A DNA stretch of 64,000 nucleotides from Eledone cirrhosa (taxonomy: Eukaryota), in contig OZ024748.1 in NCBI GenBank assembly GCA_964016885.1, positions 42,098,001 to 42,162,000 of the forward strand. The letters run 5' to 3'. The notes under the pieces are model-generated. The model saw only the letters and a list, made by a program, of their open reading frames with translations, was not told the origin of the DNA and did not search any database. Below, piece after piece: positions 1 to 56,385 of the stretch (its first letter is position 1; each line of letters opens with the position of its first letter). Made by a program: the position numbers and the translations under genes.

Positions 1-293
1 TATATATATATATGTGTGTGTGTCTATATGTATTACATTGTAGTGTATGTATATGTGTGTATAATATATATATGTATGTATGTGTGCATGTATATGTATT
101 GTATTGAGTAAATTCGAAGCTAAAGTATTGATTAAGTAGCGGCGGCGATGTGACGTGTGAAGAAGTAGAAGAAAGAAAAGAAGACGAATTAGAGGTAGAA
201 AGAGGAGGAGAATAAGAAGCAGAGTGAGGATGTGAAATGTAAATGTGTGTGAAATGTGAAGCAGTAGTCGCCATATTGCTATTTCACGTCTTT

Positions 294-308
294 CTCTGCG
301 CACGGCCC
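294..308 (+). promoter_or_regulatory. Metal-response element (MTF-1 site), CTCTGCGCACGGCCC
   Basis: Exact match to the extended MRE consensus CTNTGCRCNCGGCCC (core TGCGCAC at 297-303). It lies 600 bp upstream of a zinc-transporter ATG, in a CpG-containing patch with a YY1-like CGCCATATTG at 269-278. Confidence 0.65.
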
Positions 309-907
309 AAAACAAACGTGAAAGGCCATGTGTTAGAAAAACATTTTCAACCGGGACCTTCAAATGTAAATAATTTGGGTCATCATCATAATATATATAT
401 AATACATAGACAAACTTAACTACATACCCATATTTCAGTTTTCTCTGCAAGCATAGGGACCTTATCCAACGCAACAAAACTAAAGACAAGCGATCCCGTT
501 TTGATATTTCGGAGGATTCTAATGAACATGTTTCTTCTTTTTATTGGAAAATTCCAAACAAGAACATAACAAAATTTCATTATTTACTTTATAGTCCACC
601 CCTTAATTTTTCCAAACTTCTTGTTTTTATTTGGCAGAGGAAAAACCGTTAAATAATAATAATTGATTGTTTAATTAATTTTTTTGCTGAGGATGAGAAT
701 ATATGTTTAGGAGAATAACTATTCTAGTCTATTTCATTTTTTTTGCCTTTCATTTAAATAACTTAAACACTATTTTTTAAATCTTTTCATTGATATCTTT
801 TTATTTGTTAGTTGGAGAAAAAGAAAAAAAAAATTCCAAGCGTGTTTATTTTTATTGAAAATTTAATAATTCGCGACAAAAAAAAAACTGTTCATTCAGC
901 CTTGAGA

Positions 908-1468
908 ATGTGCCCGGTATTCACTGGAAAGTATTGCATCTTATGTTTTCTATTCTGTTTGCTTCTGTCGCCTTCTTCTCCCAACAAATCTGAGAAAACC
1001 CGGCTTTCACCACCACCACCACCAAATACGACACCTCCACCAATATCATCGCCTAATTCCAGGCTTGAAGAAGACAATTACAAGCAAAAAAGTCCCAAAT
1101 CTTATGAAAAAGCTAATCATAATTTCGAATCTGAACAGCAGATCTCCCACCCCGATAGGAGGAACACTACTTTATACTTCATAAAGATTCTCTTTGACAA
1201 ATACGGTGAAGCCGACACTTTGACATTAGATGGTTTGAAATTATTGCTTTACAGTATCGGCCTTGAAACTAAGCAAAATGTTTCCTCTGTGTTGTCCCCA
1301 ACTTCCAAGTCATCTGTCCCCACGAATCCATCTTCCCTATCTTCCACACATGTCGACAGCACGGAAGAGCCGAATTCTGTACAAGGTGCTCGTTCCAGGA
1401 GACACGTATCTACTAACAAATCAACTTCTGATTCAAATAATGAAAAACACAGCCGTCCATCATCAGCG
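908..1468 (+). CDS. First coding exon of a LIV-1 subfamily ZIP zinc transporter (ZIP6/ZIP10/foi-like ectodomain)
   Basis: ATG at 908 and a signal-peptide-like start (MCPVFTGKYCILCFLFCLLLSPSS). The motif YFIKILFDKYGEADTLTLDGLKLLLYSIGL resembles the ZIP6/ZIP10 LFxRYGENxxLSxxGxxKLLxNxGL motif. Also an RSRR dibasic site and a phase-0 donor GCG|gtaat. No downstream exons recognised in the window. Confidence 0.75.
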
Positions 1469-9235: not shown

Positions 9236-9308
9236 TAAATATACATTAATAACTATGAAAAATGTTTGTCAAAATATAGAATATATTTGTTATTAAATAC
9301 ATTTCTTT

Positions 9309-11618
9309 ATCTTAGTGTTGCCTCTGTTTTAGAGATCAGCAAGGATTGATGCTGGAATCTTAGTGTTGCCTCTGTTTTAGAGATCAGCAAGGATTGATGC
9401 TGGAATATTAGTGTTGCCTCTGTTTTAGAGATCAGCAAGGATTGATGCTGGAATCTTAGTGTTGCCTCTGTTTTAGAGATCAGCAAGGATTGATGCTGGA
9501 ATCTTAGTGTTGCCTCTGTTTTAGAGATCAGCAAGGATTGATGCTGGAATCTTAGTGTTGCCTCTGTTTTAGAGATCAGCAAGGATTGATGCTGGAATAT
9601 TAGTGTTGCCTCTGTTTTAGAGATCAGCAAGGATTGATGCTGGAATCTTAGTATTGCCTCTGTTTTAGAAATCAGCAAGGATTGATGCTGGAATCTTAGT
9701 GTTGCCTCTGTTTTAGAGATCAGCAAGGATTGATGCTGGAATCTTAGTGTTGCTTCTGTTTTAGAAATCAGCAAGGATTGATGCTGGAATCTTAGTGTTG
9801 CTTCTGTTTTAGAAATCAGCAAGGATTGATGCTGGAATCTTAGTGTTGCCTCTGTTTTACAAGGATTGATGCTGGAATCTTAGTGTTGCCTCTGTTTTAG
9901 AAATCAGCAAGGATTGATGCTGGAATCTTAGTGTTGCGTCTGTTTTAGAAATCAGCAAGGATTGATGCTGGAATTTTAGTGTTGCCTCTGTTTTAGAGAT
10001 CAGCAAGGATTGATGCTGGAATCTTAGTGTTGCTTCTGTTTTAGAAATCAGCAAGGATTGATGCTGGAATCTTAGTGTTGCCTCTGTTTTAGAAATCAGC
10101 AAGGATTGATGCTGGAATCTTAGTGTTGCCTCTGTTTTAGAAATCAGCAAGGATTGATGCTGGAATCTTAGTGTTGCTTCTGTTTTAGAGATCAGCAAGG
10201 ATTGATGCTGGAATCTTAGTGTTGCTTCTGTTTTAGAGATCAGCAAGGATTGATGCTGGAATCTTAGTGTTGTTCTGTTTTAGAAATCAGCAAGGATTGA
10301 TGCTGGAATCTTAGTGTTGCCTCTGTTTTAGAGATCAGCAAGGATTGATGCTGGAATCTTAGTGTTGCCTCTGTTTTAGAAATCAGCAAGGATTGATGCT
10401 GGAATCTTAGTGTTGCTTCTGTTTTAGAGATCAGCAAGGATTGATGCTGGAATCTTAGTGTTGCTTCTATTTAAAGAGATCAGCAAGGATTGATGCTGGA
10501 ATCTTAGTGTTGCTTCTGTTTTAGAAATCAGCAAGGATTGATGCTGGAATCTTAGTGTTGCTTCTGTTTTAGAAATCAGCAAGGATTGATGCTGGAATCT
10601 TAGTGTTGCCTCTGTTTTAGAAATCAGCAAGGATTGATGCTGTAATCTTAGTGTTGCGTCTGTTTTAGAAATCAGCAAGGATTGATGCTGGAATCTTAGT
10701 GTTGCTTCTGTTTTAGAAATCAGCAAGGATTGATGCTGGAATCTTAGTGTTGCGTCTGTTTTAGAAATCAGCAAGGATTGATGCTGGAATCTTAGTGTTG
10801 CGTCTGTTTTAGAAATCAGCAAGGATTGATGCTGGAATCTTAGTGTTGCGTCTGTTTTAGAAATCAGCAAGGATTGATGCTGGAATCTTAGTCTTGCGTC
10901 TGTTTTAGAAATCAGCAAGGATTGATGCTGGAATCTTAGTGTTGCCTCTGTTTTAGAAATCAGCAAGGATTGATGCTGGAATCTTAGTGTTGCGTCTGTT
11001 TTAGAGATCAGCAAGGATTGATGCTGGAATCTTAGTGTTGCCTCTGTTTTAGAAATCAGCAAGGATTGATGCTGGAATCTTAGTGTTGCGTCTGTTTTAG
11101 AAATCAGCAAGGATTGATGCTGGAATCTTAGTGTTGCTTCTGTTTTAGAAATCAGCAAGGATTGATGCTGGAATCTTAGTGTTGCTTCTGTTTTAGAAAT
11201 CAGCAAGGATTGATGCTGGAATCTTAGTGTTGCTTCTGTTTTAGAAATCAGCAAGGATTGATGCTGGAATCTTAGTGTTGCCTCTGTTTTAGAAATCAGC
11301 AAGGATTGATGCTGGAATCTTAGTGTTGCTTCTGTTTTAGAAATCAGCAAGGATTGATGCTGGAATCTTAGTGTTGCTTCTGTTTTAGAAATCAGCAAGG
11401 ATTGATGCTGGAATCTTAGTGTTGCTTCTGTTTTAGAGATCAGCAAGGATGGATGCTGGAATCTTAGTGTTGCTTCTGTTTTAGAAATCAGCAAGGATTG
11501 ATGCTGGAATCTTAGTGTTGCTTCTATTTTAGAGATCAGCAAGGATGGATGCTGGAATCTTAGTGTTGCTTCTGTTTTAGAGATCAGCAAGGATGGATGT
11601 TGGAATCTTAGTGTTGTT
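9309..11618. repeat. 48-bp minisatellite, about 48 highly homogeneous copies
   Basis: Unit atcttagtgttgcctctgttttagagatcagcaaggattgatgctgga, with no spacers. Confidence 0.97.
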
Positions 11619-12017
11619 CTATGTGTAGGTTTACACTTACTTTTAATTTCCATTAAGTCTCTTGTAGTCAGATGCTGGGGGACTTCAAATGTTCTCTACC
11701 CCAGGGGCCCTTTGGGTGGCTTCTCTCTTTTAGAGGTTGGCCTAGATTGATACATTAATCTCAGTATTGTTCTATGGTCCCTAGCTGCTTTAATCTGGCT
11801 TACAAAGGTTTACACTCTCTTTAGCAAGCTAAACAATCATATATATATATATCTATCAAGCGTTAACCTAATATATACCTTCCATATACTGTACCGATTG
11901 TGTTATTTCTGTTTACCTTTTACATACATATATATATACATATATATATAAAAATTGAGGCTTGTTTGCATAATTGCAAACGAATCGAATGTTGTTATTA
12001 ATATTGGAAAAACTCAG

Positions 12018-44120: not shown

Positions 44121-44419
44121 ATATATGAATATATTATGTCTTTATATTCACCTGTTATATTTCACAGTAATACTGTAACAAAAAGCTATATTTTATAATT
44201 CTACTTCCAGGTAGCTATTTTAGAACATATCATATATACATATATATATATTTAATTATATAATAAACAACACAATATAATTATTCCATTACCCAAGGTT
44301 TTGCGAAGTTAGACGACTCTAACAGAAACATCTGTTTTGTGCCTTCATATATACCTGTGTTATATTTCACATTATTTCATATTGTAACAAAAAGCTATAT
44401 TTTATAATTCTACTTTCAG

Positions 44420-44538
44420 GTAGCTATTTTAGCAGCCACTTTATAATGGGTGGTGAGAGGTTTGATATGACTCAACCAGAAGCTTACTTATTTGGTGAAA
44501 ATCAAGATTTAAACTTTCTGGGAAACAAACCAATTCCT
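44420..44538 (+). CDS. MGRN1: MGRN1-like exon 2
   Basis: ttcag|(G)SYFSSHFIMGGERFDMTQPEAYLFGENQDLNFLGNKPIP|gtaagt; frame consistent with exon 1. Confidence 0.95.
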
Positions 44539-44731
44539 GTAAGTATAAAACTACATCAGTTAATCATCATTATCACCACGGGTCAGGCAGTCATCCACGT
44601 CGAGAGACAAGTCTGGCCAGAATTGAGCACGCCATATCTTGCTCTGACGGGACTATAATTTTGGTCTGGGTTTTTACAGTTGGATATATATATATATATA
44701 TATATATATACTTAGGGTAGTAGAGTGGGTA

Positions 44732-44792
44732 ATAGGAACGAGTAGGACCCCGATGACTTGAGCTCAGCCGTCGGGGTCCTACTCGTTCCTAT
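44732..44792. repeat. 22-bp perfect inverted repeat (hairpin) derived from the Penelope-like terminal repeat
   Basis: ataggaacgagtaggaccccga / tcggggtcctactcgttcctat with a 17-nt loop; sequence matches 19912-19960. Confidence 0.85.
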
Positions 44793-46764
44793 ATATATAT
44801 ATATATATTTAATATTATTTAGATGGCTAGGGCTGTGGATTGGCAGTATCGGTAGAGTGTCGAACAACATGCTTTATGGCATATAGTTACATCCCTTTAT
44901 GTTCTGAGTTCAAATCCTGTCGAGGTTAGCTTTGCCTTTCATCCTTACAGGGGTCGATAAAATAAAGTACCAGTAACCTACTAGGGTCGATTTAATCAAT
45001 TTCCCCTCCCCTAAAATTGTTGGCCTTGTGTCTAAATCAGAAACCAATATATATCATCATTGTTTAACATTTGTTTTGCTTAGGTTGGACGGGTTGTCAC
45101 GCTGTGAAGAGTGGAGTCAGGTGACCACGTTTTGTTCATATATTCTGTTTTGGGCTTGGTTTTCTATGATTGAATAGCTTTTCTTTCTAATGTTAACCAC
45201 ATTACAATGAGTACTTCTGAGAATTACATGCACACACATATATAATCTTCCTGAATAGCATTATATAGACAATTGTCTATAAGGGCGGTGGATTGGCAGT
45301 ATCGGTAGAGGGTCGGACGCCATGCTTTCCAGCATAGTTACGTCTCTTTACAATCTGAGTTCAAATCCCGACGAGGTTGACTTTGCCTTTTATCCTTACG
45401 GGGTCGATAAAATAAAGTACCAGTAATGAACTGGGTAATTGCTGGCCTTGTGCCTAAAGTAGAAACAATTATATAGACAATTGTTGTTACAGCTCACACC
45501 TATGTAGGTTTAGCTGGCCTCTCACAAGGTTGTAGGTCATAGAAGGTTTCTTGGGTGTTTTAATAATGTTGTTATAGCTCATATCTATATAGGTATAGCT
45601 GGTCTCTTACAATGTTGAATCTCATAGGAGGTTTCTCTGCTATCTTAATAATAGAGAGCCGTGTCCTACATGTTGTTACAGCTCATATCTATGTAGGTTT
45701 AGCTGGCCTCCTACGAAGTTGCTTCCCATAAGGTTTCTTGGGTGTTTTAATGATAGGGGCCATAGTCCTATCATGTTAACAGCTCATCCCTATGTTGCTT
45801 GCCTCCTACAAGGTTGAATTATAGGTTTCTTGAGTGTTTTAACAATATGGGCCGTAGATCACATCTCTATAGCTTTGGCTCGTTTCCTATGAGGTTGCAT
45901 ATCATAGGAGATTTCTCTGGTGTTTTAATGGTAGGGGCGCCAGTCTTATCATGAAATACTACACCCTCTGGACTGGATAGCTGGGTTAAATTACTAGATC
46001 AGGTGGTACATTGTCTTTGAGCAAGACACTTCATTTCATATTTCTGCAGTCCACTCAGTCTAGCTGAGGCTGTATTGAAAGTAAAATCAATAGAGGGAAC
46101 TCAAGTAATCCCAATCTGTTAATGTTGACTCTTGTCTACAGAATAACCCCTATCTAATCAATGACCCTTACCTAAACAATAACCCCTATCTAAGGAAAAA
46201 AACAAACAAATTAGAGTGTGGGTGTGGACTACTGAGATATCGTTAATTGAAGGGTGTAGGTGTGGACTAATGAGATATGGGTAATTGAATTGTGTTGTTG
46301 ATTTCTTGAAAATTAATATTTAATGAGAAGCTGGAGACAATGAGAGAATTTCTGAAAAATGAAAGTTTAAAGGAAGAAAGATTGAGAAAAATACTTAACA
46401 ATGAAGTTTTGAGACATTGTGTGGTTATAAGGAGAGAAATGGGGAGGTATGTTTAAATGTGATTAGTCTAGAACAAAAGGAGGGTGGGAAGTTGAAGAAA
46501 TATCACAGTTATAGTGACTATAGAAGTGGCTGAGGAAATACTTAATATGTGAGATATAACTGTTGTTTTAGGTTATAGTGGAGAAGTTGGTATCATTGAT
46601 ATCTTTTATATTATAGAGAAGTTGGTATCATTGATATCTTTTAGATTATAGAGAAGTTGGTATCATTGATGATTTATATTATATTATATAGCAGAGAAGT
46701 TGGTATAATTGATATCTTTTATATTATAGAGGAGAAGTTGGTATCATTGATGTTTTATATTATA

Positions 46765-48115
46765 CTAGCAGTGGTACCCGGCGTTGCACGGGATAAGATA
46801 TTGTGAAATATATAACCGCTTTAGCTAAGCTTAGTATTGCCACAACCACGGCTGGCAAAGAAGTAAGGGTCTGGTAGTACGTAAGTAAACAACACTGTGG
46901 CTTAAAACGGGAGGAAGAAGTTGTATGCACTTACCGACTGTTTGGGGAATGAGTGTGAGATTTGTCTTGAGCAAGGGTGGCAAAATAACCGGAGGCAGCA
47001 GACAGCCAGACATACAGACAGATATTATAAGGGCGCGTTCTGGACACAGAGCGAATTGTAGGAAGTGGCGTAATGCAGGCAGCCAGACATACAGACAGAT
47101 ATTATAAGGGCGTGACGTTATATGTATGTATCTATCTAAAAAGAGAAAGACTAAGAATTATAGAGAGAGATCACTAAATCGCCTAATGCGGTCCCTAGGG
47201 CATTGAAAATTTGAAATTTTTTTTGCTCAGAACACTCTCTAAAACATAAGTATTACATGTGTAAAGTTTGAAAACAGTCGGTTGGGTGCTTCTCTAGTTT
47301 TAGGGATTCAAACTCACACACACACACAGACAGACACATGCGTTAATTACTTATAGCTTTCCTTCCCCTCTTCCAACGTCTCTCTCTCTCCCGCTATCCC
47401 CCTCTTTTAGTCTGTTTCTTTCACTCTCACTCTTTCTCTTTATAACTTACATTAATACTAAAGAGTTAAGGTATTGTTCTCAAAATAAATATTAAATCTA
47501 TGAGGTTTTTATATTATGTGAGATAAAGCCTTTACCATGACAATAATATAGTATATATAGAGTAATGTAAATGCTAAAGGGTTAATTCGATCAGACCATG
47601 TGAGAGAGTTTATAATCACTTACGCACACATACACACTCATGCATGCAAACGCACACAAACTCACACACACGCAATAGTTATTCCACTGTCATGTAACTT
47701 TGACGCATACAACTCTCAAAAGACAGTGTCTGTCACTCTCTCTCTCTCCCGCTATCCCCCTCTTTTAGTCTGTCTGTTTCTTTCACTCTTTCTCTCTGTA
47801 ACTCGTTCACATTTCTCCCCTCTATCGAAAAACGCTGTGACGAATGGGGAGAAGGAGGAGGAGGAGTAGAGAGCCACTTCTTCACTTCACCTCTCCGTTT
47901 CTTTCTCTCCCCTCTCACTCCCTCATTATGTACAGACATTGGCCACTTCACTAATTCGATCCCTAGGTCAGAATAATTTGAAATTTTTTGGGGCTCAAAA
48001 CACTTCCGGGGCCATACAGGTTACATGTGTAAAGTTTGAAAAAAAACGGTTGGGTCTTCTCGAGTTTTAGGGAAACAGACACACAGACAGACATCCTCTG
48101 TTTTATATATAGAGA
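46765..48115 (-). mobile_element. Non-autonomous Helitron
   Basis: Minus strand starts TC(TCTATATATAAAA) and ends with hairpin cccgtgcaacgccggg plus CTAG. Inserted between A and T with no TSD; internal duplication and a piggyBac-MITE end. Confidence 0.85.
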
Positions 48116-49362
48116 TTATATAGTAGAGAAGTTGGTATCATTGATATCTTTTAGATTATAGCAGAGAAGTTAGTATCATTGATGTCTTTTAGATTATAGC
48201 AGAGAAGTTAGTATCATTGATATCTTTTAGATTATAGTAGAGAAGTTGGTATCATTGATATCTTTTAGATTATAGCAGAGAAGTTGGTATCATTGATATC
48301 TTTTAGATTATAGTAGAGAAGTTGGTATCATTGATATCTTTTAGATTATAGCAGAGAAGTTAGTATCATTGATATCTTTTAGATTATAGCAGAGAAGTTG
48401 GTATCATTGATATCTTTTAGATTATAGCAGAGAAGTTAGTATCATTGATATCTTTTAGATTATAGCAGAGAAGTTGGTATCATTGATATCTTTTAGATTA
48501 TAGTAGAGAAGTTGGTATCATTGATATCTTTTAGATTATAGTAGAGAAGTTGGTATCATTGATATCTTTTAGATTATAGTAGAGAAGTTGGTATCATTGA
48601 TATCTTTTAGATTATAGTAGAGAAGTTGGTATCATTGATATCTTTTAGATTATAGCAGAGAAGTTGGTATCATTGATATCTTTTAGATTATAGCAGAGAA
48701 GTTAGTATCATTGATATCTTTTAGATTATAGTAGAGAAGTTGGTATCATTGATATCTTTTAGATTATAGTAGAGAAGTTGGTATCATTGATATCTTTTAG
48801 ATTATAGTAGAGAAGTTGGTATCATTGATATCTTTTAGATTATAGTAGAGAAGTTGGTATCATTGATATCTTTTAGATTATAGCAGAGAAGTTGGTATCA
48901 TTGATATCTTTTAGATTATAGTAGAGAAGTTGGTATCATTGATATCTTTTAGATTATAGTAGAGAAGTTGGTATCATTGATATCTTTTAGATTATAGCAG
49001 AGAAGTTGGTATCATTGATGTCTTTTAGATTATAGCAGAGAAGTTGGTATCATTGATGTCTTTTAGATTATAGCAGAGAAGTTGGTATCATTGATATCTT
49101 TTAGATTATAGTAGAGAAGTTGGTATCATTGATATCTTTTAGATTATAGCAGAGAAGTTGGTATCATTGATATCTTTTAGATTATAGTAGAGAAGTTGGT
49201 ATCATTGATGTCTTTTAGATTATAGCAGAGAAGTTGGTATCATTGATGTCTTTTAGATTATAGCAGAGAAGTTGGTATCATTGATATCTTTTAGATTATA
49301 GTAGAGAAGTTGGTATCATTGATATCTTTTAGATTATAGCAGAGAAGTTGGTATCATTGATA
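48116..49362. repeat. 38-bp minisatellite, about 33 copies (plus about 5 degenerate units at 46578-46764)
   Basis: Unit tagagaagttggtatcattgatatcttttagattatag. Confidence 0.97.
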
Positions 49363-50984
49363 GAGCCGTCTTTGTCCATGGTTGTTCCTATGTGTTACTA
49401 ACTACTGGTGTTGTAGTAGTTCACCATATCTACTTGGTTTATAGGCTGTGCCATTTTATCTACCAAAATACTTGCTATAAAGCCAATTTGGCTCTCAGCA
49501 TCTCTCTTAATAAAGACAGAAATTCTCCCAGACCACACATCTTCTCTCACCCCACTCTTATATTTTTCATTTGCCAACTTTACCAAATAGCTTCCCAACT
49601 CTCAAACAATACAGTCTATAATAATCTAATCAACATATCCACCTTGTTGTTGTTGTTTATTATCAAGATCTTCCCAGAACTGTGGCAGCGCCATATTGTC
49701 TTCACTTCCAACATTTTTCTAAAAATATATATATATTATTGATTTCTTACTTTGATTGTCAAATATTTAGGAGTCTTCTCTTTTTTCAAAAATTTATTTA
49801 TCTGCATTTCACTTTTACTTGAAGCTCTTGTATTTTTCTCTAAAAATTAAAATAAATTGGACACCAAAAATTAAACAATAGAGTTTGACCCTTAAATTGG
49901 GAACATAAAATGGAGTTATACACTTTGTCCCCCTAAATTGGGCAACAAAAACTGAACTATATACTGAGTTTGACCCATAAATTGGACTAAAAAAAACTGA
50001 CTTATCTACAGAACCCTACATAAAATTCAACTTCAGGTGATAGGGCAGGGGTTCCTTTCATTTTAACACCCTGGAATGCTCCTATAAGAAACAGCACAGC
50101 ATCCCTCCACTGTGAGCTTCAGTGATTTCAGATCAACTCTCACAACCTCCGGCCAAGTCTTTCTTGGTTTCCTTCTGTAGGTTCCTTCTCCTGGGATTTT
50201 TTGACACTTCTTCACCCACATCCATACCAGTGCAGTCTTCTCTCCTGAACACTACATCTTATTGGTCTTATACTCAGCTTTTCTCTAAGCCCATCCATGC
50301 TTTGTTCTTCACACACATTATCATTGCACATCCATTGAAACATTATTTGGAAACCTTCCAACATAATATTACATAACAAACTTAATAATGAGAAAATTAA
50401 TTATATTATTCACTCCAAATTCTTGATTATTTTCAAAGTGTCTTTCATTAAAACAATATGGTAACAAAAGCAAATACATCAATCTTTATTTCATTAAGTA
50501 CATCTGATCTGAGGAGCTTCCCATGGGAGACACGATAAAACAGATTGTTATTCAACATAACACGTACATATACACATATCTACATAAGCCTGTATATATA
50601 TAAAGCTAGCCAGGAATATAGCTGTACATTCATTCAGAGTTTTAATTTAAAGCTGTGAAATTTAACTTTACATATACAATATTACAGGTACTCTTGGGTC
50701 CCAAATAATGGGGGCTGGGAAATAGGTAATTGTATAGTGTATGTTCATAAATATGGGTTTTCTTCTAATGATTTTTTTTTTTTGTCATATATAATGTTTT
50801 TTTAATGTAAAATAAAATAGTTATTAGATTCTCCAGTTGTTGTATCAATATAAATCACTTGGAACAAAATTTCGCTGGAGATAGATAAGCAAAATTTAAT
50901 GGGGTGGGGGTGATTATTCAAAACCTGTGGATACATATACATATGTTCTGTACATATCTACATAAGCCTGTGTATATATACGTG

Positions 50985-51016
<32 letters not shown>

Positions 51017-51587
51017 AGCGTTGTGTAGGCGCCACACTAAGAAGCACCCAGTACTCACTGTAAATGAGGTTGGAGCTAGGAAGGGCATACAACTGTAGAA
51101 ATCAAGCCAAAATCAGTTCTGTGTGAGCAAGACCTGACCTGGTATTGCCTACAACAGGACAACTCGTCTAACCCATACTAGTGTGGAATAATGGACATAA
51201 AACTGTGGTGATATATATGTATATAAGTTAGCCAGAAACTTAGCTATACAACCATTTAAACAGAGTTTTCATTTAAAAGTTGTGAAATTCTCTCGCTGTA
51301 CCACACCACCATCTGACTAAGACATTTGTACCATTTAATAAAGGTAAAATTGTATAAATTTCAACCAATGTATTTATAAATGATATTACATAAGTTTCAT
51401 GAATAGACTACACATTATTTTCTGTGTCAACATAACATTTATTTATGAAAGCTAACATTGTTTTCCTCAAGAATAAATCACACTTCTCTATTTCCCTCAG
51501 CTTGTGTTAATGTAATAATAATTGTTTCTATATTTGGCACAAGGCCAGCAATTTGAAGGGGTAAGTCAACTAAATCTACCCCAGTGC

Positions 51588-51922
51588 GCTCAGACTCAGA
51601 AGCTCCCGCGTCTTGCGACGCATGAGGCAATCATAGTGTTCCACCGCGTTCGGTCACCAGCCAGTTGCACAGCGTCCCGCCATTGTCTGTTTGTCGCTCG
51701 CAGGTCCCTCTCAACTGTCTGGCGCCAGTTCATTTTGGGTCGCCCTCTCCGTCTGCTTCCCTGTGGGTTCCATTTAAGTACTTGGTTCGCCAGTCTCTCC
51801 GGGGGAAGTCTCAAAGCATGCCCAAACCAGCCCAGGCGTCGCTTGCAGATGGCAGAAGAGACTAGCTGCTGGCTGGTGCAGTTCCTGACTTCCTGGTTTG
51901 TTACATGGTCACTCCATTTAAT
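51588..51922 (-). mobile_element. RTE LINE 3' fragment nested in a family A SINE (51520-52075, minus)
   Basis: Encodes WFGHALRLPPERL...RRRGRPKMNWRQTVERDL; flanked by the 9-bp duplication ccccagtgc (51579-51587 / 51923-51931). Confidence 0.8.
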
Positions 51923-52287
51923 CCCCAGTGCATTACTGGTACTTTATTTTATCGAGCCTGTAAGGATGAAAGGTAAAGCTAACCTCAGCGGGATTTGAAC
52001 TCGGAACGTAAAGAGCCATATAAATACTGCAAAGCATTTTGTCTGACGCTCTACCGATTCTGCCAATCCACCATAATAATGATAATTATAATTTAGATAT
52101 ATGACCAAAAATGTTTTATGGGGGGCAGAGGGAAGTTAATTACTTTGGTTCATTAATTTTTAATGACTATAAATCTAGTATCTCAGTATCTGTGTATATA
52201 TATATATATATATATTTGATATATATTTATCCTTATCGAGCCCTCTTTGGATTTTAGTCTTCACATTTATTGTTATTACTATATATA

Positions 52288-52674
52288 TCATCATCATCAT
52301 CATTTCATTTTACGTCTGCTTTTCCCTGCTTGCAAGGGTGGGACTGGAACTGATTCTGGCTTGATTTCTACAGATGGATGCCCTTCCTAACACTAACCTC
52401 ATTTACAGTGAGTGCTGGGTGCTTTTTTTCCGTGGCGCCTACACGTCCACTTTACAGTGTGGGCTGGGTGCTTTTTTGCAGTGGTACTACCTCCACGACC
52501 ACTTTGCAGTGGAATGATATGGACACCAGTCCCTATCATCTCATTTCTACAGCTGAGTAAACTGGAACAATGTGAAATAAAGTGTCTTGCTCAAGGAAAC
52601 CACATCACCTGGTCTGAGAATTGAACTCACAATCTTTCGATTGCAAGGCTCTAACCACTAAGCTATGTGCCTCC
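52288..52674 (-). mobile_element. tRNA-derived SINE, family B
   Basis: Reverse complement of the 56053 copy; (cat)n tail. Confidence 0.88.
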
Positions 52675-52816
52675 ATTTAAGTTTGTTGGTTCACCACTGG
52701 ATAGAACTGGTCATTCTGTATGGTCAACCTCGATGTAATAATATGGAGAGCACTCAACGTAATGCAACTCACTCGTCTTCGTTGGTGTAGTTGGTGGTGC
52801 GAGTACGGAGTGAATT

Positions 52817-53080
52817 ATAAGATAACAAGAGGCTGGACTGGTGTAATTCCTGAAAAGGTTTATTATACTATGATGGCCGAGCGGGGTAGAAGCTGCTAAA
52901 TGTTCGGTCGCCCTCATGTCTCTGATTTTCAACCCCATGGATTTTGTCTATTATATTCCTTTGTTATATTTCGAATACCTGATGATGTCACCGGATTCAT
53001 ACTGAACCCGGTCATTGAAATGATCATAGTATAATAAACTTTTTAAGGAATTACACCAGTCCAGCCTCCTGTTATTTTAT
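52817..53080 (+). mobile_element. Penelope-like remnant with inverted arms
   Basis: 58-bp imperfect inverted repeat (52817-52874 / 53023-53080) overlapping a hammerhead motif. Confidence 0.65.
52975..53032 (+). ncRNA. Minimal type I hammerhead ribozyme motif in MGRN1-like intron 2 (sense strand)
   Basis: ATAC-CTGATGA-tgtcaccgg...ccggtcatt-GAAA-T GATC A-TA-GTAT, then AATAAA; palindromic loop 3. Confidence 0.6.
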
Positions 53081-53451
53081 ATATATATATAGTTTAGAGG
53101 TTTGATCAGTACGCTAACAGAAGTCTGATAAGCTTCTCATTCCAGAGTCGGACCCGAATGTCGCAGACCAAACCGTGAGCCGATCATTCACAAAACGAGC
53201 ATCACACCTCAATAAATATAATGAAAATTTGACACCTTGTCTATATTATTATTATTATGGATTGGCAGTATTGGTAGAGGGTCGGATGCCATGCTTTGAC
53301 GCATAGAGTTACGGCCCTTGCCATTCTGAGTTCAAATCCCGCCGAGGTTAACTTTGCCTTTCATCCCTATGGGGTCGATAAAATAAAGTACCAGTAATAC
53401 ACTAGGTAATTGCTGGCCTTGTGCCTAACGTAGAAAAAATTATTATTATTA

Positions 53452-53482
<31 letters not shown>

Positions 53483-53733
53483 TATATTATTCAAAATATA
53501 AAAAACTCCAGGGAAACTTTCTTTGTTGAGTGCTTCTAATCTATTGTAAAATTGTATTCATTGAGTAATCAACGAACCATACTAATCTTTGGTTATATAT
53601 ATATATATAATGTCCAACCCTTGCTAGCAGGGAAAGTAGATATTAAATGTTAAAATGTCAATGATGATATATATATATGTATATGTGTGTGTATATATAT
53701 ATATATAAATAACTCTGTGTGTATGTATGTATA

Positions 53734-53773
<40 letters not shown>

Positions 53774-54130
53774 ATATATACACAGACACAGGCAAACAGA
53801 GTTTATTTTAATGTTGTAGTTAAATGCTAAACTTTGAACTGACATAATCTGACCTAAATAATGAATTGTTGGTGTTTATTTTCAAACTCTAATTATGACT
53901 CATGCTGCAAAATATTTCACAATCATCATCATCATTATCATACATTCATTTATTTCCATGCTAGTATGGGTTGGATAAGAATTTATTTGAGGCAGTATTT
54001 TACAGTTGGATGCCCTTCTTGGTGTCAACTTTTTTTTTTTTTTTTTTTTTTTTTTTGTTAAATGAAATTAAAAAAATGAAATAATATAAATTTAACAATT
54101 TATGATTTTTTTTTAAATATTTAATTTCAG

Positions 54131-54219
54131 TTCCCTTATCCTTTGCCCCAAGGTAATGAACCAACAAAAACTTTGAAAAGCCTTGTTAATATTCGTAAGG
54201 ATACTTTGCGGTTTGTACG
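54131..54219 (+). CDS. MGRN1: MGRN1-like exon 3
   Basis: ttcag|FPYPLPQGNEPTKTLKSLVNIRKDTLRFVR|gtaag. Confidence 0.95.
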
Positions 54220-54832
54220 GTAAGAATTTTCTCCTCTGTAGCCCCAGAGTCTTTGCTTTCCCCCTCCTTTTCTTCTCATTTTTGGCTTTTATAGTCTTTT
54301 CTTCTACTTTCCCACACAGCCAGATCTGCCCTTCTTTATCCCTTCCCATTTGTAATGTTATTTATACAATTGTCAATAAAACCTGGAGTTAACCAAGTTA
54401 GAAAATATGTAAATAAACGCATTTTTGTGTGTATAATATTATTAGTAATATCCAGTTGGCTTGCAAGCAAGCAGTCTCATTACACCATGTGTTGAAGATG
54501 ACTACTGTCATCTTTTTTTCCAGCAGTAGCATTGTTATACACATACACACATTATTGTTGTCATACACAAACACACACAGATATGCAGACACACATAGAA
54601 AGAGTCAGGAGAACCCTTTTATCAATTATTTTCACCAAAAATGAGAATCTGATGTAAATAAAATATTACTGAATATCATGAGATATAATGTGCTTTAATT
54701 TTAGTCTCAATCTAAATCTTCTTTATATCTCGACTATATCTCCACTATATTATTTCTATATTACCACTACTATATCTCCACTATATTATCTATGTCTTCA
54801 TTATGTCACCACGTATTTTTCTATCATTTCAG

Positions 54833-54991
54833 TATCAATGATGCTGAAAAGGTTCCACTAGATTCTACTGATGCTGATCCACCATTAAATTATTTCCGTT
54901 ACAATATTGAGTTTACATTTGACTCTGATGTTAAATGTGCCATAACTATTTATTATTTTGCATTAGAAGAAATCAACAACGGACAGTTAGT
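54833..54991 (+). CDS. MGRN1: MGRN1-like exon 4
   Basis: ttcag|INDAEK...YNIEFTFDSDVKCAITIYYFALEEINNGQLV|gtaagt. Confidence 0.93.
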
Positions 54992-55214
54992 GTAAGTTGT
55001 GTTGGATTTTTATATTCTTCTCTCTCTCTTTATCTCTCGATCACAATATCGTCTCTCTCTTTTTATGGTAGGGTCTGATTTGAGGGAGATTTGACTGCTA
55101 TATCTAATTTGTCAAGCCATCCACCCTACTTTTCTTTATTCTATGTTTGATATATTTGAAGCATGTGGCCTAGTTGATAGTGTGTTGGTCACCGTTTAAG
55201 GTCCATTTTCCCAT

Positions 55215-55612
55215 GCTGGAGAGAAATGAAGCAAGTATGCTCTGTTGGATGTGCAATGTCAATGTGCGTGAACGACCAAGCATGGACGAGTTGAGTAAGA
55301 AACTGGGTATAAGAGAGATAAGTTGTGGTGTGCAGGAGAGAAGGCTGAGATGGTATGAACATGTGATGCACATGGAGGATGACTGCTGGATAAAGATAAA
55401 GAAGTGCCAAGAAATCCCAGTAGAAGGAAGACGCTGTAGAGGAAGACCACGAAAAACATGGGCGGAGGTGGTGAGAGAAAACCTCAGATCGCTGAAACTC
55501 ACAGAGGAGATGACGAAGGACCGTGACAAGTGGAGAGATGCTGTGCTGAATAGGACCCGTCCAACCCTTGCAAGCAGGGAAAAGCGGACGTAAAATGATG
55601 ATGACGATGATG
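55215..55612 (+). mobile_element. RTE LINE 3' fragment with (ATG)n tail
   Basis: Encodes RRLRWYEHVMHM...GRPRKTWAEVV...DRDKWR. Confidence 0.85.
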
Positions 55613-55680
55613 AGACAAGCTAGATTTATTTTCAGTGATTTTTTTTAACAAATAGTTTAATTTATAATTGTATTTTTCAG

Positions 55681-55798
55681 CTACCACCCTCGTGATGCTT
55701 CTATGAACTCTGAGACATATCATTACAAGAGGGGAGCAAATCAAGTCTTCTGTCAGTCAACTCATGTTATTGATCCAACTAAATTTTCAGAAGATGAA
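55681..55798 (+). CDS. MGRN1: MGRN1-like exon 5
   Basis: ttcag|YHPRDASMNSETYHYKRGANQVFCQSTHVIDPTKFSEDE|gtaagt. Confidence 0.93.
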
Positions 55799-55912
55799 GT
55801 AAGTTTTAACTATTTATTTATTTTATTTTCATCATCCTCATCATCACTTTTAACTTATTCCTTTAGTGGTTCCATTTAACTAATTCTATTTAATGTTGTC
55901 TACACATTTCAG

Positions 55913-55976
55913 TGGCAGTATAACCCAGATAAAGAAGTAATACCTGTTGTAATTCAATGTATTGTGGAAGAAGAAG
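55913..55976 (+). CDS. MGRN1: MGRN1-like exon 6
   Basis: ttcag|WQYNPDKEVIPVVIQCIVEEE(E)|gtaa. Confidence 0.92.
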
Positions 55977-56052
55977 GTAAAGAAATATCTAATTATTCTT
56001 ACATTTCTCTCTGTTTGTGGCATTATTATTTTGAAACTATATATATATATAT

Positions 56053-56385
56053 GGAGGCACATGGCTTAGTGGTTAGAGCATTGGCCTTGCAATCGAAAGG
56101 TTGTGAGTTCAATTCTCAGACCGGGTGATGTGTTGTTTCCTTGAGCAAGACACTTTATTTCACATTGCTCCAGTTTACTCAGCTGTAGAAATGAAAATGA
56201 TAGGGACTGGGGTCCATATCATTCCACTGCAAAGTGGTCGTGGAGGTGCCACGGCAAAAAAGCACCCAGCACTCACTGTAAATGAGGTTGGTGTTAGGAA
56301 GGGCATCCAGCTGTAGAAATCAAGCCAGAATCAGTTCTCGTCCCACCCTTGCAAGCAGGGAAAAGCGGACGTAAAGTGATGATGA
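56053..56385 (+). mobile_element. tRNA-derived SINE, family B
   Basis: GGAGGCACATGGCTTAGTGGTTAGAGC head, GAGTTCAATTC B-box, RTE-like tail and (GAT)n. Confidence 0.9.

What the first reader, a model, noticed from the sequence alone, without database searches (positions are those of the whole stretch)
269..1468. Perfect 15-bp metal-response element upstream of a ZIP6/ZIP10-like zinc importer
Seen: CTCTGCGCACGGCCC at 294-308, 600 bp before the ATG, in otherwise very AT-rich DNA. Established: this is the extended MTF-1 MRE consensus of metallothionein promoters, and vertebrate Zip10 (Slc39a10) is unusual in being repressed by MTF-1 through an MRE near its TSS. Inference: an MTF-1/ZIP10 zinc feedback circuit may be conserved in this mollusc and so be ancient in bilaterians.
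Basis: partly seen in the sequence, partly recalled or inferred. Interest (0 to 1): 0.7.

Follow-up and report, generated by a model that had tools for sequence, protein, structure and literature searches.

The report
Zinc off-switch in octopus importer gene
An octopus zinc-importer gene carries a perfect copy of the DNA word read by the zinc sensor MTF-1, unchanged in two related species and likely lying inside the transcript's front end, so zinc would likely shut the gene off as it does for mouse Zip10, a feedback loop that my searches found described only in vertebrates.

Summary
The motif is real: CTCTGCGCACGGCCC at 294-308 matches the full MRE consensus, 600 bp before the ATG, in single-copy DNA. 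It has 37 genome matches; 26 of 30 inspected lie in repeats, so a hit within 1 kb of this gene has odds near 1e-5. The exon starts a ZIP5/6/10-foi group importer, not ZIP14. New here: the MRE sits in a 117-nt block (267-383) with 0 substitutions in another octopod, against 9-13% in the flanks. Probable RNA contigs of that species run through it and start 0-226 nt before the block, so it likely lies in the transcribed leader, as in mouse Zip10 (+17). A six-finger MTF-1-like gene is present (named from recall). Best reading: zinc-loaded MTF-1 binds and blocks elongation (0.55; untested). Caveats: the whole block is conserved, not only the MRE (it also holds a YY1-like site and AUG-stop uORFs); bilaterian ancestry is not shown; exons 2+ are missing from this assembly.

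The parts
294..308 (+). Full-consensus metal response element (core TGCGCAC at 297-303)
   Evidence: 13 of 13 consensus positions; no substitution in organism B (1 DNA contig) or organism C (3 runs)
267..383 (+). Invariant non-coding block that contains the MRE; single copy
   Evidence: 0 substitutions and 2 small deletions (291; 342-344) in organism C, against 12 listed in 384-478 and 76 in 799-1385; Fisher p 4e-5 and 7e-7; one genome match for 262-390
267..278 (+). YY1-like motif (CGCCATNTT at 269-277; motif recalled) at the 5' edge of the block
   Evidence: 2 matches in the whole window on both strands; unchanged in organisms B and C; binding untested
282..323 (.). Inverted 8-mer pair TTTCACGT (282-289) / ACGTGAAA (316-323) flanking the MRE
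   Evidence: the only 2 copies of this 8-mer in the window; RNA fold of the block not significant, z -1.64
148..369 (+). Cluster of minimal uORFs: AUG-stop at 148, 230, 237, 254, 364 and AUG-Cys-stop at 328-336
   Evidence: 5 of 11 AUGs in 111-907 are AUG-stop against 6.8% in the window, p 5e-4 post hoc; 328 and 364 lie in the invariant block
267..907 (+). Probable unspliced 5' leader, contiguous with the first coding exon; start site not mapped
   Evidence: one organism C contig is colinear from 267 to 1385; contigs of 4 runs begin 0, 110, 140 and 226 nt before 267; RNA status is the tool's guess, backed by a spliced junction at 1468 in X6
908..1468 (+). First coding exon (187 aa: signal-peptide-like start and ectodomain) of a LIV-1 ZIP of the ZIP5/6/10-foi group
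   Evidence: 74% identical to O. bimaculoides P0002, which has Pfam Zip E 4e-63; tree; spliced to exon 2 in X5 and X6 contigs. The exon alone has no Pfam hit
20027..20226 (.). Assembly gap (200 N), the likely place of the missing exons 2+
   Evidence: exons 2+ not found in G000; placement in the gap is inferred

Best explanation
This is likely a working MTF-1 binding site in the 5' leader of an octopod ZIP5/6/10-type zinc importer, through which zinc would switch the importer off. Shown: a full-consensus MRE, single copy, unchanged in two related species inside an invariant 117-nt block; the gene's family; a six-finger MTF-1-like gene in the genome. Inferred from contigs: the MRE lies roughly 30-260 nt downstream of the transcription start(s). 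Inferred from mouse Zip10: when zinc is adequate, zinc-loaded MTF-1 occupies the site and obstructs Pol II going from initiation to elongation; when zinc falls, MTF-1 leaves and the importer is transcribed, closing a negative feedback loop. The YY1-like site next to it would be part of the core promoter that the MRE gates. Whether the link is inherited from the bilaterian ancestor (about 0.25) or arose independently is open.
For: 13/13 consensus match; a chance hit within 1 kb of this ATG is about 1e-5 counting all 37 genome matches, 7e-4 if 60 kb of zinc-gene promoters is allowed. The 3' GGCCC arm is linked to higher MTF-1 affinity (PMC9820605, passages). 0 substitutions in 117 nt against 27 in 384-682 and 76 in 799-1385 in organism C. 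Contigs of 4 probable RNA runs include the MRE, 3 of 4 with 110 nt or more before the block. Gene groups apart from ZIP8/14 (SH-aLRT 100) and has HELPHE, not EE.PHE. Six C2H2 fingers in order at G000:C26:8307667-8320500, one genome hit. Mouse Zip10 is repressed through an exonic MRE at +17 by blocked elongation (PMC3124522, passages and Discussion); oyster MTF-1 regulating ZnT1 and MT appears as reference titles only.
Against: No binding or expression data. The whole block is invariant, and the 15-mer alone would stay unchanged by chance with p 0.12-0.24, so conservation does not single out the MRE. Only close relatives were reachable. No positive control for MRE use in this genome: no metallothionein over the Pfam cut-off, and no core scoring above 11 of 13 among 86 in 220 kb before a ZnT1-like exon. 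The start site is unmapped and contigs cannot show it. A downstream MRE need not repress: Drosophila ZnT35C is MTF-1-activated and has one in its 5' UTR (PMC1635269, passage). The MTF-1 name rests on recalled finger motifs; no database call confirmed it.
Confidence: 0.55

Rival explanations
1. The block is a conserved core promoter or leader module (YY1-like site, paired ACGTGAAA sites); the MRE-like word is carried along or read by another GC-box zinc-finger protein, and zinc does not regulate the gene through it.
For: All 117 nt are invariant, not only the MRE; the YY1-like motif and the inverted 8-mer pair are rare in the window; one contig starts exactly at the block edge.
Against: Does not explain a 13/13 MRE in the one transporter group known to be MRE-repressed (odds about 1e-5 to 7e-4).
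Confidence: 0.17
2. MTF-1 binds the site but activates, or answers to another metal (copper shortage, cadmium), as Drosophila MTF-1 does for the importer Ctr1B.
For: Drosophila MTF-1 induces Ctr1B on copper starvation and activates ZnT35C, which has a 5' UTR MRE (PMC1635269, passages). The MRE may lie more than 250 nt from the start, further than the mouse +17 site.
Against: Single site, probably downstream of the start, in a zinc importer; mouse, zebrafish and catfish zip10 MREs are all reported as repressive.
Confidence: 0.15
3. The block is conserved as RNA: minimal AUG-stop uORFs, perhaps with a hairpin, gate translation or mRNA decay in response to zinc, like the boron-sensing AUGUAA of Arabidopsis NIP5;1.
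For: 5 of 11 leader AUGs are AUG-stop (p 5e-4, post hoc); those at 328 and 364 are invariant, and the organism C loose end has an AUG-stop at the place matching 254. NIP5;1 precedent: PMC11915504, search listing and start of abstract only.
Against: Several AUG-stops come from one repeated AAATGTGA-like unit, so they are not independent; 0 of 15 leaders of 100 nt or more from metagenome loci show such a cluster within 300 nt (single or scattered cases in 3 of 15); fold z -1.64, no Rfam match; it does not explain the MRE.
Confidence: 0.08
4. Chance match without function, possibly in front of a broken gene.
For: About 4-10 chance matches are expected in such a genome; exons 2+ are absent from G000.
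Against: Invariant in organism C; a contig of a run with the window's species label is spliced from 1468 to exon 2 (X5), so the gene is likely intact and the assembly incomplete.
Confidence: 0.05

Closest known systems
Mouse Slc39a10 (Zip10) repression by MTF-1 (PMC3124522)
   Same: Same transporter branch (ZIP5/6/10); a single MRE, probably downstream of the start in the first exon. The unmutated 3' part of the paper's mutagenic primer reads ACGGCAC, close to ACGGCCC here (the wild-type core was not in the passages I read).
   Different: Mouse site is at +17 in an untranslated first exon; here the leader is about 640 nt or more, contiguous with the coding exon, and the site is about +30 to +260 by contig ends. 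The octopod gene is a pro-orthologue of ZIP5/6/10. No functional data here.
Fish zip10 MREs (zebrafish intronic cluster, Zheng 2008, seen only as cited; yellow catfish -2017, PMC9321221 passages)
   Same: MRE-dependent down-regulation of a ZIP10 importer by zinc.
   Different: Positions differ from mouse and from this site, so the element is not positionally conserved even among vertebrates.
Mollusc MTF-1 regulon (oyster CgMTF-1 on ZnT1 and MT; reference titles in PMC11242308)
   Same: MTF-1/MRE signalling is reported in molluscs.
   Different: Those targets are an exporter and metallothionein; no mollusc importer under MRE repression turned up.
Arabidopsis NIP5;1 AUG-stop boron sensor (PMC11915504, listing only)
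   Same: Micronutrient importer with minimal AUG-stop uORFs in its leader.
   Different: Plant, boron, ribosome-level; here only a sequence resemblance.

Membership tests
MTF-1 metal response element | Core TGCRCNC plus 3' GGCCC arm | tested here: met
   consensus as printed in PMC4333406 and PMC9820605; the 5' CTN extension is recalled
MTF-1 metal response element | Cognate factor MTF-1 encoded in the genome | tested here: inconclusive
   six C2H2 fingers in order, one hit; identity judged from recalled motifs, not confirmed
MTF-1 metal response element | Zinc-dependent binding and regulation | not testable with these tools
   needs EMSA, ChIP, reporter
MTF-1 metal response element | Conserved and outside repeats | tested here: met
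   conservation covers the whole block and only close relatives
Zip10-type repressive MRE | [quoted passage not shown] | tested here: inconclusive
   inside contigs of 4 probable RNA runs of organism C; start not mapped, no silent-stretch control
Zip10-type repressive MRE | Repression by zinc with blocked Pol II elongation | not testable with these tools
   inferred from PMC3124522
ZIP (SLC39) LIV-1 subfamily | Zip domain with HEXPHEXGD motif and long ectodomain | tested here: met
   on the orthologue P0002; the window holds only exon 1, which has no Pfam hit alone
ZIP5/6/10-foi branch | Groups with mollusc ZIP10-like, arthropod foi and vertebrate ZIP5/10, apart from ZIP8/14 | tested here: met
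   quick IQ-TREE of 43 rows; ZIP4/12 and vertebrate ZIP6/8/14 not sampled, careful search unfinished, midpoint root
ZIP8/ZIP14 (NCBI name of the orthologue) | EEXPHE motif (diagnostic recalled) and ZIP8/14 clade | tested here: not met
   P0002 has HELPHE; 13 of 13 ZIP8/14 rows have EE.PHE and form a separate clade with a different O. bimaculoides gene
Ancestral bilaterian MTF-1/ZIP10 circuit | MRE at orthologues across protostome phyla | tested here: inconclusive
   core in 1 of 15 leaders of 100 nt or more, best score 9 of 13 in 16 loci; starts and taxa unknown

The most novel reading that the evidence does not exclude
The invariant leader block is a two-level zinc gate on the importer: MTF-1 blocks Pol II at the MRE, and the conserved AUG-stop uORFs beside it stall ribosomes in a zinc-dependent way, an animal counterpart of the plant NIP5;1 boron sensor, with the MTF-1 link inherited from the protostome-deuterostome ancestor. 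The ancestry part alone has a probability of about 0.25.
Probability: 0.06. Interest if true: 0.8.

Novelty: new member of a known kind. Interest (0 to 1): 0.45.

Why it matters
MTF-1 is mostly an activator; its repression of Zip10 is the textbook exception and, in my searches, is described only in mouse and fish. A perfect, conserved, probably leader-located MRE in a cephalopod ZIP5/6/10 gene makes it directly testable whether this feedback is older than vertebrates or evolved twice, and it gives a precise candidate control point for zinc and cadmium uptake in cephalopods. It also corrects a database name: this octopod gene is not ZIP14.

Tried and rejected
Repeat origin of the motif: rejected for this copy, although most other genome matches are repeat-borne. 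ZIP14 identity: rejected. Exons 2+ in G000: not found by local tblastn, whole-protein search (stricter first look), C-terminal search or exon-2 pattern. No RNA holder on record was listed; the low-depth run with the window's species label had no contig over the MRE, which is no evidence either way; no silent-stretch control was laid. RNA structure: z -1.64, 11 of 200 shuffles as good; Rfam only E 0.84. Positive controls failed: metallothionein not found; the MRE-core cluster 167 kb before the ZnT1-like exon looks like retroelement sequence by eye; the 12-mer in the intron of the ZIP paralogue at C8:42583720 belongs to a LINE-like repeat family. Metagenome test: of 79 loci I picked 21 by eye as having a plausible start, 15 with 100 nt or more of leader, and 16 with genomic flanks (2 in both sets); no match above 9 of 13 in the 16. 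PDB holds no entry named MTF-1 among the 60 shown; Atlas unavailable. Earlier-findings look-ups gave nothing relevant. Papers not held: Zheng 2008, Wimmer 2005, Stoytcheva 2010 and a YY1 promoter paper. No supplements were read; oyster metal-exposure tables could bear on the zinc response of mollusc ZIP10-like genes.

Full report
1. Observation. Window 294-308 reads CTCTGCGCACGGCCC and the ATG is at 908. It matches all 13 specified positions of CTNTGCRCNCGGCCC; the 12-bp form TGCRCNCGGCCC is printed as the MRE in PMC4333406 (passages) and the 5' CTN is recalled. The core alone is not enriched in the window (13 seen, 18.1 expected) and the other 12 cores score 6-9 of 13. Markov models expect 1-2.6e-4 full matches per window. 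The 3.0-Gb genome has 37 matches, the reversed control 4. Of the 30 fetched, 26 share flanks with other loci and are repeat-borne; of the 4 others one lies in a LINE-like ORF remnant and one is this site. Region 262-390 is single copy. The chance that any of 37 matches falls within 1 kb of this ATG is 1.2e-5, or 7e-4 for a generous 60 kb of zinc-gene promoters.

2. The gene. Exon 908-1468 is 74% identical to an O. bimaculoides protein (P0002) and 59% to Argonauta, so the window is octopod. P0002 carries Pfam Zip (E 4e-63); the exon alone has no Pfam hit. NCBI names P0002 ZIP14, but its nearest named relatives are mollusc ZIP10-like and arthropod foi proteins. In a quick 43-row tree it sits among lophotrochozoan ZIP10-like proteins (99) and apart from ZIP8/14 (100), where a different O. 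bimaculoides gene falls; it has HELPHE while 13 of 13 ZIP8/14 rows have EE.PHE. The careful search did not finish and ZIP4/12 and vertebrate ZIP6/8/14 were not sampled. ZIP5, 6 and 10 form one vertebrate sub-branch (PMC2745754, passages), so this is a pro-orthologue, not a strict ZIP10. Exons 2+ were not found in G000. Contigs of X5 (the window's species label) and X6 continue from 1468 into the exon-2 sequence expected from P0002, so the gene is likely intact and the rest lost in the assembly, perhaps at the 20027-20226 gap.

3. Conservation. In organism C (X7, X8, X9; one study) 267-383 has no substitution and two small deletions, while 384-478 has 12 listed substitutions. In X6, 267-682 has 27 and 799-1385 has 76 of 587. 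Fisher p is 4e-5, 2e-4 and 7e-7 for the three comparisons. Sequence just before 267 is too diverged to lay. Organism B (about 97% identical, so barely informative) also keeps the MRE. Limit: the 15-mer alone would be unchanged with p 0.12-0.24, so it is the block that is shown to be constrained. The block also holds a YY1-like word at 267-278 (motif recalled), an inverted 8-mer pair around the MRE, and minimal uORFs at 328 and 364.

4. Position. One X6 contig is colinear with the window from 267 to 1385, so no intron separates the MRE from the ATG in that species. Contigs of X6, X7, X8, X9 begin 0, 110, 140 and 226 nt before the block; those of X7 and X9 are 3729 and 3823 nt, which fits a full mRNA (inference; their splice sites were not in view). 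RNA status is the tool's guess, backed by the X6 splice; contigs cannot show a start. The MRE is thus probably in the 5' leader, about 30-260 nt from the 5' ends, rather than in the upstream promoter.

5. Trans factor and controls. A recalled MTF-1 finger motif gave one genome hit, and six C2H2 fingers follow in order at C26:8307667-8320500. They fit MTF-1 as I recall it; no database call confirmed the name. Controls for MRE use elsewhere in this genome failed: no metallothionein over cut-off and no core above 11 of 13 among 86 in 220 kb before a ZnT1-like exon whose promoter is unmapped.

6. Mechanism. In mouse, MTF-1 binds one MRE at +17 in the first exon of Zip10, zinc represses and TPEN induces, and Pol II initiates but does not elongate (PMC3124522, passages and Discussion). 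The same layout here makes zinc-dependent MTF-1 repression of the importer the best reading (0.55). Shown: element, constraint, gene family, candidate factor. Inferred: position relative to the start, binding, sign, roadblock. Rivals: a core-promoter module with the MRE as passenger (0.17); MTF-1 activation or response to another metal, as for Drosophila Ctr1B and ZnT35C (PMC1635269, passages) (0.15); RNA-level control by AUG-stop uORFs, 5 of 11 leader AUGs against 6.8% background, post hoc and not independent, with NIP5;1 as precedent (listing only) (0.08); chance (0.05). The block does not fold significantly and has no Rfam match.

7. Age. Not shown. Vertebrate zip10 MREs differ in position: mouse +17, zebrafish intronic (as cited), catfish -2017 (PMC9321221, passages). 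From 79 metagenome loci I picked 21 with plausible starts; 1 of the 15 with 100 nt or more of leader has a core, and the best score in 16 loci with genomic flanks is 9 of 13. Starts and taxa are unknown, so this is a weak negative. Passages on Drosophila foi mention no MTF-1 control. Independent gain is at least as likely as inheritance.

8. Novelty. Searches for mollusc or cephalopod MTF-1/ZIP10 regulation showed no report; subscription papers and supplements were not seen. Verdict: a well-supported candidate for a known kind of circuit in a new phylum. Interest 0.45.

Noticed in passing
window 44323-59218 (+): Exons of a RING-finger gene (Pfam zf-C3HC4_3) that resembles Mahogunin/MGRN1 (name recalled). 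MGRN1 is tied to prion biology and ZIP5/6/10 ectodomains to prion origin (PMC2745754), so the adjacency is curious; synteny not checked.
   Followed up: partly
G000:C8:42577133-42591129 (-), L031-L033: A second LIV-1 ZIP gene (HEIPHE motif, possibly ZIP4/12-like) about 480 kb downstream on the opposite strand, with a LINE-borne MRE-like 12-mer in an intron.
   Followed up: partly
L001-L030 (e.g. L003, L002, L020): Two or three repeat families, at least one in a LINE reverse-transcriptase ORF, carry a full MRE consensus and account for most genome matches; they could seed metal-responsive sites.
   Followed up: partly
P0002, P0003: NCBI names these octopod proteins ZIP14 although they belong to the ZIP5/6/10-foi group; the true ZIP8/14 gene is at G000:C12:38.39 Mb, with a further EELPHE paralogue on C22.
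   Followed up: yes
window 148-369: Five AUG-stop elements and one two-codon uORF ahead of and within the conserved block; unexplained.
   Followed up: partly
window 13782-16024 (-), 51522-51998, 55170-55644, 62427-63329: RTE-type LINE remnants; the one at 13.8-16 kb has a cysteine-rich finger-like stretch inside its reverse-transcriptase region.
   Followed up: no
window 9307-11695: Long tandem array of a 48-bp unit that is open in one frame for up to 423 codons.
   Followed up: no
G000:C26:8307667-8320500 (+), L134-L136: Single six-finger MTF-1-like gene; finger 6 helix differs slightly from the vertebrate one as recalled.
   Followed up: partly
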